Of a stretch of 33,921 nucleotides of DNA, positions 233 through 30,613 are shown piece after piece. The position numbers were made by a program, and so were the translations under genes. Where the stretch lies: contig JAPSJU010000001.1 of assembly GCA_031178025.1 (NCBI GenBank), positions 1-33,921 of the forward strand, in the 5' to 3' direction. Each line of letters starts with the position of its first letter. Position 1 is the first letter of the stretch. This DNA is from Agromyces sp. GTDB taxonomy: Bacteria > Actinomycetota > Actinomycetes > Actinomycetales > Microbacteriaceae. The notes under the pieces are model-generated. The model was not told the origin of the DNA. It worked only from the letters and a program-made list of their open reading frames with translations, and ran no database searches.

Positions 233-1153
233 ATGGACCACCGTTCCCTCCCGGTTCCGGACGGACTCGACGGCGTCCGGGTCGACCAGGCCCTCGCGAA
301 GCTCCTCGGCTTCTCCCGCACGCTGGCCGCGGACATCGCCTCGGCGGGCGGGGTGCTGCTCGACGGGGCTCCGGTCGACAAATCGGACCGGCTGCGCGCC
401 GGCGCGTGGCTCGAGGTGAGCTGGGAACCGCCGAGGACCGTCGAGGTCGTGCCGACCGCCGTGCCCGACCTGGGCATCGTGCATGACGACGACGACCTCG
501 TGGTGGTCGACAAGCCCGCAGGCGTCGCGGCGCATCCGTCGCTCGGCTGGGACGGGCCGACGGTCGTCGGAGCCCTCGCCGCGGCCGGCTTCCGCATCTC
601 GACGTCCGGCGCGCCCGAGCGTCAGGGCGTCGTGCACCGGTTGGACGCGGGCACGAGCGGCCTCATGGTCGTCGCGAAGTCGGAGCGGGCCTACACCGAA
701 CTGAAGCGCCAGTTCCACGACCGCGAGGTCGAGAAGATCTACCACACCGTCGTGCAGGGCCACCCGGATCCGCTCGCCGGGACGATCGACGCCCCCGTCG
801 GGCGCCATCCGCGATCGGAGTGGAAGTTCGCCGTCACCGCCTCGGGCAAGCACGCCGTGACGCATTACGAGACGCTCGAGGCGTTCCCCTACGCGTCGCT
901 CCTCGAGGTGCATCTCGAGACGGGCCGCACCCATCAGATCCGGGTGCACATGGCCGCGCAGCGGCATCCGTGCGCGGGCGATGCGATGTACGGCGCCGAC
1001 CCCTCCCTCTCGGCGCGACTCGGGTTGACACGACAGTGGCTGCACGCCCGCGAGCTCTCGCTGACGCACCCAGGGACGCGGGAGTGGACGACGTTCGCAT
1101 CCGACTACGCCGCCGACCTCGCGCGCGCACTCGAGCTGCTGCGCGGCGACTGA
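233..1153 (+). CDS. rluD: RluA/RluD-family 23S rRNA pseudouridine synthase
   Basis: N-terminal S4-like RVDQALAKL; motifs [16 protein letters not shown] (catalytic Asp), [24 protein letters not shown]. Confidence 0.92.
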
Positions 1154-1197
1154 GCGCCGCGCACGCCGGCTGCGGCGGCGACGTGGGTCGGTCGCCG

Positions 1198-1203
1198 TAG
1201 ACT
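1198..1203 (+). promoter_or_regulatory. Putative -10 element (TAGACT) for dnaE
   Basis: TANNNT hexamer in the rluD-dnaE gap, about 50 nt before the GTG start; RBS GAGGAG at 1242-1247. Confidence 0.5.
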
Positions 1204-1251
1204 CGGAACACCCCCAGAGAACCACCTCGCAGTACCCCGATGAGGAGCCCA

Positions 1252-4200
1252 GTGGCCGCCGATTCCTTCGTCCACCTGCACGTCCACAGCGAGTACTCGA
1301 TGCTCGACGGCGCAGCGAGGGTCGGTGAGCTCATCCAGGCCGCGAAGGGCGAGCAGATGCCCGCCGTCGCGATCACCGACCACGGCAACGTGTTCGGCGC
1401 CTACGACTTCTGGAAGCAGGCGACCGACGCCGGCATCAAGCCGATCATCGGCACCGAGGCGTACCTCACCCCTGGCACGCATCGCAGCGACAAGACCCGC
1501 GTCCGCTGGGGCGGGGGCGGCGGCGACGACGTGTCGGGCTCCGGTGCGTACACCCACATGACGCTGCTGTCGGAGACGACCGAGGGCATGCACAACCTCT
1601 TCCGGCTCTCGAGCCTCGCGTCGATCGAGGGGTACTACTTCAAGCCGCGGATGGACCGCGAGATCCTGCAGCGCTACTCGAAGGGGCTCATCGCGACGAC
1701 CGGATGCCCGTCGGGCGAGGTGCAGACCCGCCTGCGGCTCGGGCAGTACGACGAGGCCGTGAAGGCGGCGGCCGACTACCGCGACATCTTCGGCCGCGAG
1801 AACTTCTTCGCCGAGATCATGGACCACGGGCTCGGCATCGAGAAGCGGGTCATGGACGACCTCGTCCGGCTCGCGAAGCAGCTCGACCTGCCGCTCGTCG
1901 CGACGAACGACCTGCACTACACGCACGCGCACGACGCGAAGAGCCATGCCGCACTGCTCTGCGTGCAGTCGGGTTCGACGCTCGACGACCCCAACCGCTT
2001 CAAGTTCGACGCCGACGAGTTCTACCTGAAGACCGCGGCCGAGATGCGGCACCTGTTCCGTGATCATCCCGAGGCGTGCGACAACACCCTGCTCATCGCC
2101 GAGCGCGCCGACGTGCGGTTCAACACGAGCGCGAACTACATGCCCCGGTTCCCGGTACCCGAGGGCGAGAGCGAGGAGAGCTGGTTCGTGAAGGAGGTCG
2201 AGCGCGGCCTTCACGTGCGGTACCCCGGCGGCATCCCCGACGAGGTGCGCAGGCAGGCGGACTACGAGGTCGGCGTCATCTCCCAGATGGGATTCCCCGG
2301 GTACTTCCTCGTCGTCGCCGACTTCATCAACTGGTCGAAGAACAACGGCATCCGCGTCGGTCCCGGTCGCGGTTCGGGAGCCGGGTCGATGGCGGCGTAC
2401 GCGATGCGCATCACCGACCTCGACCCGCTGCGCCACGGCCTCATCTTCGAGCGGTTCCTGAATCCCGACCGCGTCTCGATGCCCGACTTCGACGTGGACT
2501 TCGACGAGCGTCGTCGGGGCGAGGTCATCAAGTACGTGACCGAGAAGTACGGCGACGAGCGCGTCGCGCAGATCGTCACGTACGGCACCATCAAGGCCAA
2601 GCAGGCCCTGAAGGACAGCTCCCGGGTGCTCGGATTCCCGTTCGGCATGGGGGAGAAGCTGACCAAGGCGATGCCGCCGGCGATCATGGGCAAGGACATC
2701 CCCCTCTCGGGGATCCTCGACAAGGATCACCCCCGCTACAAGGAGGCGGGCGACATCCGCGCCATCATCGAGACGGACGCCGAGGCGAAGACCGTCTTCG
2801 AGACGGCGCTCGGTCTCGAGAACCTGAAGCGCCAGTGGGGCGTGCACGCCGCCGGCGTGATCATGTCGAGCGATCCGCTCATCGACATCATCCCGATCAT
2901 GAAGCGGGAGCAGGACGGCCAGATCGTCACGCAGTTCGACTATCCGGCGTGCGAGGCGCTCGGCCTCATCAAGATGGACTTCCTGGGGCTGCGCAACCTC
3001 ACGATCATCGACGACGCCCTCGACAACATCGAGGCGAACCGCGGGTTCCGTCCCGTGCTCGAAGAGCTCGCCCTCGACGACCAGGGCGCGTACGACCTGC
3101 TCGCCAAGGGCGACACCCTCGGGGTGTTCCAGCTCGACGGCGGCCCCATGCGCTCACTCCTGCGCCAGATGAAGCCCGACAACTTCGAGGACATCTCCGC
3201 GGTCATCGCGCTCTACCGCCCGGGACCCATGGGTGCGAACTCGCACATCAACTACGCCCTCCGCAAGAACGGGCTCCAGCCGATCACGCCCATCCACCCC
3301 GAACTCGAGGAGCCGCTGCGGGAGATCCTCGACACGAGCTACGGCCTGATCATCTATCAGGAGCAGGTCATGGCGATCGCGCAGCGCGTCGCCGGATTCT
3401 CGCTCGGACAGGCCGACATCCTGCGTCGCGCGATGGGCAAGAAGAAGAAGTCCGAGCTCGACAAGCAGTACGAGGGCTTCTCGGGGGGCATGAAGGCGAA
3501 CGGCTTCTCGGATGCCGCGATCAAGATGCTCTGGGACATCCTGCTGCCGTTCTCCGACTACGCCTTCAACAAGGCGCACTCGGCCGCCTACGGCGTGCTG
3601 AGCTACTGGACCGCATACCTCAAGGCGCACTTCCCGGCGGAGTACATGGCGGCGCTCCTCACGAGCGTCGGCGACGCCCGCGACAAGCTGGCGCTCTACC
3701 TCAACGAGTGCCGCCGCATGGGCATCAAGGTGCTGCCGCCCGACGTGAACGAGTCGATCGGGTACTTCGCCGCCGTCGGCGACGACATCCGCTTCGGCCT
3801 GGGCGCCGTGCGCAATGTCGGCTTCAACGTCGTCGATGCGATCCGCTCCGCCCGCGAGGCGAAGGGGCGGTTCGAGTCGTTCCACGACTTCCTCAAGAAG
3901 TGCCCGATCCAGGTGGCGAACAAGCGCACCGTGGAGTCGCTCGTGAAGGCGGGGGCCTTCGACTCGCTGGGGCACACGCGTCGTGCACTCGTGGAGATCC
4001 ACGAGGGGGCCGTGGAATCGGCCGTGAAGGAGAAGCGGGCCGAGGAGGTCGGCGACATCGGCTTCGACTTCGACAGCCTCTTCGACGACCACGAGAAGGA
4101 GGCGGCGCCCTCGCTCGTGCCGGACCGGCCCGAGTGGGCGAAGCGCGACAAGCTCGCATTCGAGCGCGAGATGCTCGGCCTCTACGTCTCGGACCACCCG

Positions 4201-29351: not shown

Positions 29352-29369
29352 AGCGTGCGTGGGTTCGCG

Positions 29370-29630
29370 TCAGAGCGCGGCGACCTGCTTCGCGATCGCC
29401 GACTTGCGGTTCGCGGCCTGGTTCTTGTGGATCACGCCCTTCGAGGCGGCCTTGTCGAGCTTGCGGGTCGCGGCGCGGAGGGCGGTCGTCGCCTTCTCCT
29501 TGTCGCCCGAGGCGATGGCGTCGCGAGTCGCGCGGACGGCGCTCCTGACCTCGCTCTTGACGGCCTTGTTGCGCTCCTGCGCCTTCAGGTTGGTGCGGAT
29601 GCGCTTGATCTGCGACTTGATGTTTGCCAC
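29370..29630 (-). CDS. rpsT: 30S ribosomal protein S20
   Basis: [27 protein letters not shown]...[23 protein letters not shown] start at 29630, 86 aa. Confidence 0.97.
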
Positions 29631-29744
29631 GTGGTTCGTCTTTCGTCTCTGCGGGTACCGGATGTGCCGACGCGGGTAGAGGGGCCCGGCCGGCGAATCG
29701 TGCGGGGTGGGACCCACACGGAAGCCAACAGACAACGATACCAG

Positions 29745-30524
29745 CTAGGTGCCGGTGGCACCAACGCGAGGAGGGCGTCGACGCCGGGCTGCCCGGTGCT
29801 CGAGTTCCGCCACGGCTCCCACGAGGACAGCGGTGAACGCATCGGGCCGGGAGAGGCTGACGAGGTGCGTCGCGCCCGGCACGACGATGAGCCGGCCGTC
29901 GCGCAGCGAACGGAGCATCCGCCGCTCGTCGATGCGGAAATGGTCGAAGCGACCGTTCACGAGCCAGACGGGAGCATCGACGCGGGCGAGCGAGGCTTCG
30001 GGATCGAGCTCGCCGACCGCCCTGAGCACCGGCGCCATGACGTCGAGCGCGACGCCGCCCGCGATCACGTCCTCGACGGCCGCGGCGGGCAGGAAGGCTC
30101 GCGCCATCAGGTCGTTGAGCGCGCGCCCGCGGTCGGGGAGCCGTCCGATCGCGGCGGCGAGCGCGCGATACCCGGCGAGCCCGACGCCGCGGGGCCGGGT
30201 GCCGCACGAGGCGGCGACGAGTCCGTCGAAGCGGCCGGGATGCCGGGCCGCGTACTCGATCGCGAGGTAGCCGCCGAGGCTCAACCCGACGAGGAGCACC
30301 GGTGGCCGCCGCTGCGGCTCGTCGCTTCCAACGGTCGGCATCCCGGCGTCGATGGCCGCCATCGCGGCCTCGATCGAGAAGTCCTCCGACATATGCCGGC
30401 CATGGCCGGGCAGGTCGATCGCGACCGCCTCGATGTCGAGTCGCTCGAGCGCCTCCAGTTGGCGCCGCCACATCGACGCGGACGTGCGCAGGCCGTGAAC
30501 GAGCACGATGCTCGCGCGCGTCAC
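29745..30524 (-). CDS. Alpha/beta-fold hydrolase
   Basis: 3' part of the 929-aa track ORF: IVLVHGLRTSASMW, AIDLPGHG, nucleophile elbow VGLSLGGY, NGRFDH, PGATHLVS. GTG 30524 follows GGAGGA. Confidence 0.85.
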   Translation of the reverse strand: MTRASIVLVHGLRTSASMWRRQLEALERLDIEAVAIDLPGHGRHMSEDFSIEAAMAAIDAGMPTVGSDEPQRRPPVLLVGLSLGGYLAIEYAARHPGRFDGLVAASCGTRPRGVGLAGYRALAAAIGRLPDRGRALNDLMARAFLPAAAVEDVIAGGVALDVMAPVLRAVGELDPEASLARVDAPVWLVNGRFDHFRIDERRMLRSLRDGRLIVVPGATHLVSLSRPDAFTAVLVGAVAELEHRAARRRRPPRVGATGT

Positions 30525-30613
30525 GACATCCTCCGTGCAGCTTCGGCCATGGTGATGCCAGCGTAGTCGGGGGTCCCGGCGGGCGGCATCCGTGAGACGA
30601 GGCGGGCAAGTCA

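What the first reader, a model, noticed from the sequence alone, without database searches (positions are those of the whole stretch)
961..30592. Highly iterated non-palindromic 10-mer GCGGCATCCG embedded in core genes (HIP1- or uptake-sequence-like signal)
Seen: at least 13 exact copies by manual count (+ at 961, 5625, 7469, 11688, 21238, 22089, 22402, 26095, 26167, 30583; - at 3509, 7074, 24000). One-mismatch copies include 2228, 2345, 5557, 11077, 15180, 23369 and 24738, and the core GCATCC/GGATGC occurs roughly 55-60 times. My zero-order estimate at an assumed 72% GC gives about 0.4 copies of the 10-mer and about 22 of the hexamer. The motif is read as Ala-Ala-Ser (gcg gca tcc), Arg-His-Pro (cgg cat ccg), Gly-Gly-Ile-Arg, and in reverse as x-Asp-Ala-Ala (gat gcc), and one copy is intergenic (30583). 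It repeatedly forces A/T-ending codons (GCA, CAT, GAT) in genes that otherwise favour G/C-ending ones. Established: frame-independent iterated oligomers include cyanobacterial HIP1, Neisseria DUS, Pasteurellaceae USS and Chi sites; the core contains the type IIS recognition sequences GCATC (SfaNI) and GGATG (FokI). Inference: this is a DNA-level signal such as a methylation/repair-driven motif, an uptake sequence (comEA/comEC are intact here), or a nucleoid or recombination protein site. I know of no described function for it in this group.
Basis: partly seen in the sequence, partly recalled or inferred. Interest (0 to 1): 0.8.

Follow-up and report, generated by a model that had tools for sequence, protein, structure and literature searches.

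The report
Chi-like DNA word in Microbacteriaceae
This Agromyces genome carries one ten-letter DNA word about 1,000 times, relatives carry it or variants of it, and several of their phages carry the host's version too; it is likely a directional stop signal read inside the cell, most likely by the DNA-break repair enzyme AdnAB, for which no such signal is known.

Summary
Confirmed: 13 copies (0.65 expected). The genome (Agromyces) holds 1,005, its commonest 10-mer; 841 lie in genes against 95 or 171 under codon-preserving nulls. It is abundant in 36 of 36 congeners, patchy with dialects across Microbacteriaceae (GGATGCC, GGATGCG, GGATCC), and not enriched in 24 other families' genomes. The scan saw the word before in Microbacterium.

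Added here: (1) Neighbours 40-700 bp apart favour opposite orientation (79 same, 175 opposite); gonococcal DUS does not (121:127), nor did one Microbacterium record (34:35). (2) No replichore skew (125:115). (3) CGGATGCC is the top 8-mer in 14 pooled Microbacterium phages, 8 significant singly, strongest in those lacking a polymerase; Clavibacter phage CMP1 carries its host's GGATCC instead. (4) The one family-wide methyltransferase found does not vary with dialect and looks like the TTAA enzyme.

So the word is likely read inside the cell, one strand at a time. Best reading: a Chi-like stop for AdnAB (0.4). Against: no skew, intact AdnA ATPase, and no dialect-tracking residue in 17 proteins. 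Reader unidentified; no description found in my searches.

The parts
961..970 (+). exact word, in RluA-family gene, read as RHP
3509..3518 (-). exact word, antisense in dnaE, read as DAA
5625..5634 (+). exact word in hisD, read as AAS
7074..7083 (-). exact word, antisense in pyrD, read as DAA
7469..7478 (+). exact word in pyrD, read as AAS; opposite-oriented neighbour of 7074 at 395 bp
11688..11697 (+). exact word in a called gene of the ABC transporter cluster, read as GIR
21238..21247 (+). exact word in pabB/trpE-like gene, read as AAS
22089..22098 (+). exact word in pabB/trpE-like gene, read as RHP
22402..22411 (+). exact word near the 3' end of the pabB/trpE-like gene, read as AAS
24000..24009 (-). 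exact word, antisense in leuS, read as DAA
26095..26104 (+). exact word in comEC, read as AAS
26167..26176 (+). exact word in comEC, read as AAS
30583..30592 (+). exact word in the gap between a hydrolase gene (-) and lepA (+)
25183..28230 (+). comEA-comEC, intact; tested as a candidate reader and not supported (comEC found in 79 of 80 high and low genomes; no convincing dialect-tracking column)
1252..4770 (+). dnaE; used with topA and dnaG of 30 relatives to show the dialect switch inside orthologous genes

Best explanation
The word (core GGATGCC, fullest form CGGATGCCGC) is written through both strands of the chromosome and of several phages of this family, and is likely a polar, Chi-like site read on one strand inside the cell, most likely by the helicase-nuclease AdnAB, which would stop degrading a broken end there and favour repair by recombination. 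Shown: enrichment, dialects, orientation asymmetry of neighbours, no replichore skew, phage enrichment. Inferred: a site helps only an enzyme arriving from one side, so a second same-facing site nearby adds little, while an opposite-facing one serves the other direction. Inferred: two-ended breaks (for example after NucS cuts a mismatch, or after desiccation) need both orientations equally, which would remove the skew. Inferred: phages copied by the host machinery would gain the word because it protects or rescues their DNA ends.
For: Pairs 40-700 bp apart: 79 same against 175 opposite, 121 expected each, p 1.6e-9. This repeats in G016 (36:66) and in pooled loci of 17 non-Agromyces genomes (67:117); 8 of 8 control words show same at least equal to opposite. 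Opposite pairs share no flank complementarity (6.3-6.4 of 20 against 6.4 random), so they are not copies or RNA stems. Flanks are polar: A-rich 5' and C-rich 3' of CGGATGCCGC. Phages: CGGATGCC ranks 1 of 30,316 8-mers in 14 pooled Microbacterium phages (121 against 55); ratio above 1 in 14 of 14, z above 3 in 8 of 14. It is not significantly enriched in 5 of 5 phages of other hosts. Clavibacter uses GGATCC and its phage CMP1 has 26 against 13.4. Ratios of 2.7-5.5 resemble Chi over-representation in enterobacterial phages lacking a RecBCD inhibitor, including those with their own recombinase (PMC3784561, passages). AdnAB-type nuclease domains are in 80 of 80 genomes, and whether AdnAB has a Chi is stated to be unknown (PMC5314763, PMC4824097, passages).
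Against: No leading-strand skew (125:115, against 46:8 for GGGGGAG), whereas known Chi sites are skewed (recalled; the paper was not held). No AdnA or AdnB column tracks the GATGC/GATCC dialects. The Agromyces AdnA keeps its ATPase motifs, and PMC5314763 infers that AdnAB is Chi-independent and that Chi sensing goes with a dead ATPase. AdnAB is also in the 14 other-family genomes searched, which are not enriched in the word. The asymmetry is absent in 200 kb of one named Microbacterium record (34:35). Total pair density is near Poisson, so attraction of opposite sites is not excluded. Six of 14 phages and Clavibacter phage CN1A are not significant. The polymerase trend is post hoc and has three exceptions.
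Confidence: 0.4

Rival explanations
1. The word is a strand signal for another host replication-coupled process, such as strand choice or end-processing in NucS/clamp mismatch repair or repriming, and spreads by repair-biased conversion on any DNA the host replisome copies.
For: Phages without a detected PolA or DnaE are more enriched (median 3.1, n=9) than those with one (median 1.4, n=5), Mann-Whitney p 0.011, or 0.016 with the two EE phages merged. The range of the asymmetry, under about 1 kb, suits a repair tract. NucS is in 30 of 30 genomes. NucS position 109 is Q in 15 of 16 GGATGCC genomes and in 4 of 14 others.
Against: That NucS column ranks only 11th of 8,057, among columns that appear to follow the tree. 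The primase recognition hairpin of Clavibacter is identical to that of several GGATGCC genomes. Hyperion has its own primase yet is enriched. Hendrix has PolA and is enriched; Hortus1 and Min1 lack one and are not. No skew sawtooth around sites.
Confidence: 0.22
2. The word is a DNA uptake sequence like DUS or USS, accumulated by transformation-driven molecular drive.
For: Dialects around a shared core, as in Neisseriaceae (PMC3630211, passages). No replichore skew. Inverted pairs in convergent gaps (1.41 per kb against 0.36 in genes). comEA, comEC and dprA are present, and pilus-type ATPases are found in 5 of 5 genomes. Tripeptides DAA and AAS are raised (ranks 5 and 22 of 7,912).
Against: Lytic phages carry it, more than the two integrase-bearing Microbacterium phages tested (Zeta1847 1.4, Min1 1.7). 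Gonococcal DUS shows no orientation asymmetry (121:127; Fisher p 6e-5 against this genome), and 246 of 545 DUS sit in hairpin pairs against 47 of 1,005 here. comEC does not separate high from low genomes. No paper on competence in this family appeared in the listing.
Confidence: 0.15
3. The word is the site of an abundant double-strand DNA-binding or chromosome-organising protein, such as a Gbn-like nucleoid protein or an anti-silencer, which phages exploit.
For: All clear dialects share GAT followed by G or C, close to the GATC(A/T)T target of Streptomyces Gbn (PMC9239103, abstract start and passages). Intergenic density is higher than coding density.
Against: Simple occupancy of duplex DNA does not predict orientation-dependent spacing. 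The genera named for Gbn do not include Micrococcales. I did not search for Gbn homologues directly.
Confidence: 0.12
4. The word is a HIP1-type product of a conserved methyltransferase and methyl-directed repair.
For: A beta-class N6/N4 methyltransferase domain is found in 41 of 41 family genomes. The core contains FokI/SfaNI sites, and one dialect is a palindrome.
Against: The enzyme's target-recognition region is nearly invariant across GGATGCC, GGATCC and no-word genomes, and it also occurs in another family. TTAA clusters just downstream of dnaA (4 there, 5 of 9 in the origin locus), the signature of the Arthrobacter TTAA orphan enzyme (PMC4752239, passages). Dam/FokI-type domains are in 4 of 30 genomes and C5 domains in 2 of 5. 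Gamma-class enzymes were not searched.
Confidence: 0.07

Closest known systems
Chi sites of RecBCD and AddAB, and their over-representation in phages (PMC3784561)
   Same: Short non-palindromic word, genome-wide, frame-independent, taxon-specific variants, polar behaviour, over-represented about threefold in host-dependent phages.
   Different: No leading-strand skew; higher host enrichment (5-9 fold over codon nulls against about 2.3 for E. coli Chi in that paper, different nulls); the resident enzyme is AdnAB, for which no Chi is known; activity untested.
DUS of Neisseriaceae and its dialects; USS of Pasteurellaceae (PMC3630211)
   Same: About 10 bp, a thousand or more copies, dialects around a short core, some inverted pairs between convergent genes, altered tripeptide use.
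   Different: Orientation asymmetry absent in DUS; far fewer hairpin pairs; present in lytic phages; no receptor found; Gram-positive family.
HIP1 and alternative HIPs of cyanobacteria (PMC5861425 passages; PMC4390886 abstract start)
   Same: Hyper-abundant word in genes, function unclear, clade variants; one dialect (GGATCC) is palindromic.
   Different: Main form is not a palindrome, and no cognate conserved methyltransferase was found.
KOPS/AIMS replichore-polarised words (recalled)
   Same: Non-palindromic iterated word.
   Different: No skew; a separate word, GGGGGAG, is skewed 46:8 in the same sample.

Membership tests
Chi | Over-represented non-palindromic word beyond codon nulls | tested here: met
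Chi | Skew to the leading strand (recalled as general for known Chi sites) | tested here: not met
   125:115 in G016 with working positive controls
Chi | Orientation-dependent action | tested here: inconclusive
   indirect only: asymmetry in 3 of 4 samples, polar flanks
Chi | Over-represented in host-dependent phages | tested here: met
   8 of 14 significant singly, rank 1 pooled
Chi | Recognised by the helicase-nuclease, switching it to recombination | not testable with these tools
   AdnAB present; no covarying residue
DUS/USS | Hundreds to thousands of copies, unskewed, with dialects | tested here: met
DUS/USS | Frequent inverted-pair organisation | tested here: inconclusive
   47 of 1,005 copies in pairs under 40 bp against 246 of 545 DUS
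DUS/USS | Orientation-independent spacing as seen for DUS | tested here: not met
   79:175 against 121:127
DUS/USS | Enhances uptake through a surface receptor | not testable with these tools
   competence genes present but not discriminating
HIP1 | Palindrome | tested here: not met
   sequence; only the GGATCC dialect is palindromic
HIP1 | Conserved orphan methyltransferase for an internal site | tested here: not met
   gamma-class not searched
Restriction site (FokI/SfaNI type) | Avoided by phages | tested here: not met
   ratio above 1 in 14 of 14 Microbacterium phages
KOPS/AIMS | Strong replichore polarity | tested here: not met

The most novel reading that the evidence does not exclude
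This is the first Chi-type site for AdnAB, the actinobacterial helicase-nuclease thought to be Chi-independent: an unskewed, two-direction self tag with genus-level dialects that phages mimic in a host-matched way.
Probability: 0.35. Interest if true: 0.9.

Novelty: new variant of a known kind. Interest (0 to 1): 0.74.

Why it matters
Whether AdnAB obeys a Chi-like sequence is stated as unknown in the papers read. This gives a concrete candidate, with natural controls: dialect switches inside one genus, and a 17-kb lytic phage of a lab host that carries the word at host-like density. If another machine reads it, it marks an undescribed sequence-specific step in actinobacterial DNA repair or replication. 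The phage result also offers a possible host-range signature for phages of this family, and the orientation-spacing test separates this word from DUS and could sort other unexplained iterated words.

Tried and rejected
Chance or codon artefact: rejected. Repeat element or copied flanks: flanks beyond about 2-3 bases are uninformative and opposite pairs share none. Replichore polarity: none. Skew sawtooth at sites, a lead from e1-5291281: not found; long-range G-C differences are about 1 point or less and controls are as noisy. Family-wide methyltransferase as writer: rejected as most likely TTAA-specific; it is missing from the 77.6% complete own assembly. Residue covariation with dialect in 17 proteins (AdnA, AdnB, UvrD2, NudC, a metalloprotease, a ferritin-like protein, a DEAD helicase, LeuS, ComEA, ComEC, HolA, LepA, DnaG, TopA, DnaE, NucS, the methyltransferase): nothing convincing. 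ComEC column 646 lies in a variable loop; DnaG zinc-domain hits appear to follow the tree, judged by eye. This test is weak: two clear origins of GGATCC, and dialect calls from 12-40 kb per genome. The first phage null (single-codon shuffle) inflated many 7-mers, so I replaced it with a null that keeps the next base. Gene calls were poor for phiC31 (24% coding). Clavibacter plasmids pCM1 and pCM2 carry CGGATCC at 0.51 and 0.64 per kb against 2.1 for a Clavibacter chromosome, with no null: inconclusive. Phage-end polarity was uninformative. Searches of phages with the AdnA nuclease domain and the Barebow endolysin found nothing useful. Curtobacterium was not identified among the handles, so Barebow's GGATCC could not be matched to its host.
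Full report
Observation. The 13 exact copies are at the stated places; 0.65 are expected and 0 of 100 shuffles reach 13. The window is contig C369 of G000, a 2.56-Mb assembly in 463 contigs, 70.9% GC, 77.6% complete. Proteins of a congener are named Agromyces; genus g57 is closest to a named Microbacterium record by LeuS (81% and 75%), and g62 is Clavibacter (96% UvrD2). The word is the genome's commonest 10-mer, 1,005 copies against 67 under an order-3 Markov model. With my own gene calls, 841 lie in genes (441 sense, 400 antisense, all six frames) and 164 in gaps or at gene edges. Nulls give 95 and 171. Single changes in the CATCC part are least tolerated. In the proteome DAA and AAS rank 5 and 22 of 7,912 tripeptides.

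Distribution. All 36 of 36 congeners carry 117-2,802 copies; 24 genomes of other families carry 6-77, near the reversed-word control. Among 300 family genomes the count runs from 0 to 2,441 and is patchy by genus. Samples of 12-40 kb from 46 genomes show dialects. GGATGCC dominates most; GGATGCG appears in G310, G335 and G230; GGATCC in Clavibacter (G098) and one Microbacterium (G296); GATCC-containing words in G157, G115, G200 and G190 (weaker calls). No word was evident in about ten (for example G183, G092, G124). In orthologous dnaE, topA and dnaG, the share of synonymously reachable positions actually used is 23.5% for GGATGCC in 16 GGATGCC genomes against 7.8% in 3 GGATCC genomes; for GGATCC it is 7.5% against 36%; in 5 others it is 5% for both. 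Sites turn over (79 distinct positions, many single), yet a site is shared across genera in 336 of 744 reachable cases against 408 of 2,630 where the first genome lacks it. Position-specific codon cost may contribute to that.

Geometry. Density is 0.36 per kb in genes and 1.41 in convergent gaps, where inverted pairs form hairpins, but only 47 of 1,005 copies are in such pairs. Neighbours 40-700 bp apart are 79 same-facing and 175 opposite, 121 expected each; the difference fades by about 1 kb. It holds inside single genes (63:125, 40-1000 bp), in G016 (36:66) and in pooled loci of 17 other genomes (67:117). It is not seen in 200 kb of Microbacterium record NZ_CP072877 (34:35). Eight of 8 control words go the other way or are level. 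Opposite pairs share no flank complementarity. In 600 kb of a gonococcal chromosome DUS gives 121:127, or 51:56 without hairpins. There is no replichore skew in 360 kb sampled around dnaA of G016 (127:119; 125:115 without the origin locus), while coding sequence (194:116 kb) and GGGGGAG (46:8) are skewed.

Phages. I took 14 Microbacterium phages from Table 1 of PMC7302621 (outline, section 5 and passages read) and added Naby. Burro was counted but not fetched, so 14 were analysed, most over their first 40 kb. Under a null that keeps amino acids and the next base, CGGATGCC is 121 against 55, first of 30,316 8-mers. Ratios: BurtonThePup 5.5, Naby 3.6, Appa 3.6, Hyperion 3.2, MementoMori 3.1, ValentiniPuff 3.0, Hendrix 2.8, Quhwah 2.7 (all z above 3); Min1 1.7, TeddyBear 1.6, Dismas 1.4, Hortus1 1.4, Zeta1847 1.4, AnnaSerena 1.2; host G016 5.0. 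Five phages of other hosts are not significantly enriched (TM4 is 3 against 1.6). GGATCC is raised in Clavibacter phage CMP1 (26 against 13.4) and Curtobacterium phage Barebow (17 against 6.7), not significantly in CN1A (8 against 5.1), and also in two Microbacterium phages (ValentiniPuff, Hortus1). Phages with PolA or DnaE are less enriched than those without (p 0.011, post hoc). RecET- or Erf-encoding phages are still enriched; in enterobacteria such phages over-represent Chi when they lack a RecBCD inhibitor (PMC3784561, passages). I infer that the word acts inside the cell on replicating DNA and is not a restriction target.

comEC matches in 79 of 80 genomes, high and low alike; AdnAB-type nuclease domains in 80 of 80; NucS in 30 of 30. 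A beta-class methyltransferase domain is in 41 of 41 family genomes (two have only weaker hits). In the 20 aligned it is near-invariant across dialects, and TTAA clusters beside dnaA as described for the Arthrobacter TTAA enzyme (PMC4752239, passages). Its specificity is inferred, not shown. No column in 17 proteins convincingly tracks the dialects.

Mechanism. A site that helps only a machine arriving from one side explains why same-facing neighbours are rarer than opposite ones. Equal need in both directions explains the missing skew, and protection or rescue of DNA ends explains the phages. AdnAB is the resident machine with that geometry: the 3' strand threads through AdnA, the counterpart of the Chi-reading RecC and AddB domains (PMC5314763, passages), and a latch-like insertion has been predicted in AdnA (PMC4824097, passages). 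The same source argues that AdnAB may be Chi-independent, and my residue tests are negative, so I give this 0.4. An intracellular strand-read signal of some kind (best explanation plus first rival) gets about 0.6.

Comparison and novelty. It fails a defining test for each known family (skew for Chi and KOPS, spacing symmetry for DUS, palindrome and methyltransferase for HIP1), so I file it as a new variant that works most like Chi. Searches for the word and its sub-words (0 papers; the one listed paper containing them has them only in probe sequences), for over-represented words in the family, for AdnAB with Chi and for methylomes showed no description. The library lacks most subscription papers, and I read no supplements. 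Other papers seen: PMC13000450, PMC9239103, PMC3630211, PMC5861425 and PMC6329791 as passages; PMC4390886 as listing and abstract start. The leading-strand skew of Chi and the KOPS label are recalled. The scan reported this word before in Microbacterium genomes, including per-strand spacing and a GGATCC clade. The phage, DUS-comparator and methyltransferase results did not appear in the short summaries I could see; two word searches aimed at them returned nothing.

Noticed in passing
L186:4869-5759 (G016) and orthologues L187-L205; L011 (G016 origin region): Near-universal solitary beta-class methyltransferase in Microbacteriaceae, even in 1.4-Mb genomes, with a TTAA cluster beside dnaA; likely extends the Arthrobacter TTAA origin system to this family.
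   Followed up: partly
L001-L018 (G016): GGGGGAG is skewed 46:8 to the leading strand, a KOPS/AIMS-like candidate for Agromyces.
   Followed up: no
L086-L089, L096-L101, L105 (phages Dismas, Quhwah, MementoMori, Appa, Zeta1847, Naby): GGATCC is wholly absent from called genes (0 against 2-11 expected), suggesting BamHI-like restriction in some Microbacterium hosts, while other lineages iterate that same word.
   Followed up: no
L032 (G098) and rows for G182, G107, G189, G160, G200, G350: ComEC matches only its membrane part in Clavibacter, and appears as two matches in several other genomes.
   Followed up: no
L060 (G173): A word AAACTCAGGAGT-like occurs about 11 times in 20 kb, probably a local repeat family.
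   Followed up: no
L104 (phage Barebow): Small EE-like Curtobacterium phage annotated with a tyrosine integrase and a cyclic nucleotide sequestering protein between portal and capsid genes.
   Followed up: no
L106-L145, NudC orthologues: The zinc-binding cysteines of NudC are lost in many lineages, including Clavibacter.
   Followed up: no
G061:C1:299206 and G061:C2:3044896: Two equal-scoring dnaE matches at contig ends, likely an assembly overlap.
   Followed up: no
whole genome G000: CTAG is depleted to 0.27 of expectation and AGCT raised to 1.3.
   Followed up: no
NZ_CP119140.1, NZ_CP072877.1: Records filed as plasmids look chromosomal (2.17 Mb with 1,958 DUS; 465 kb with leuS).
   Followed up: partly
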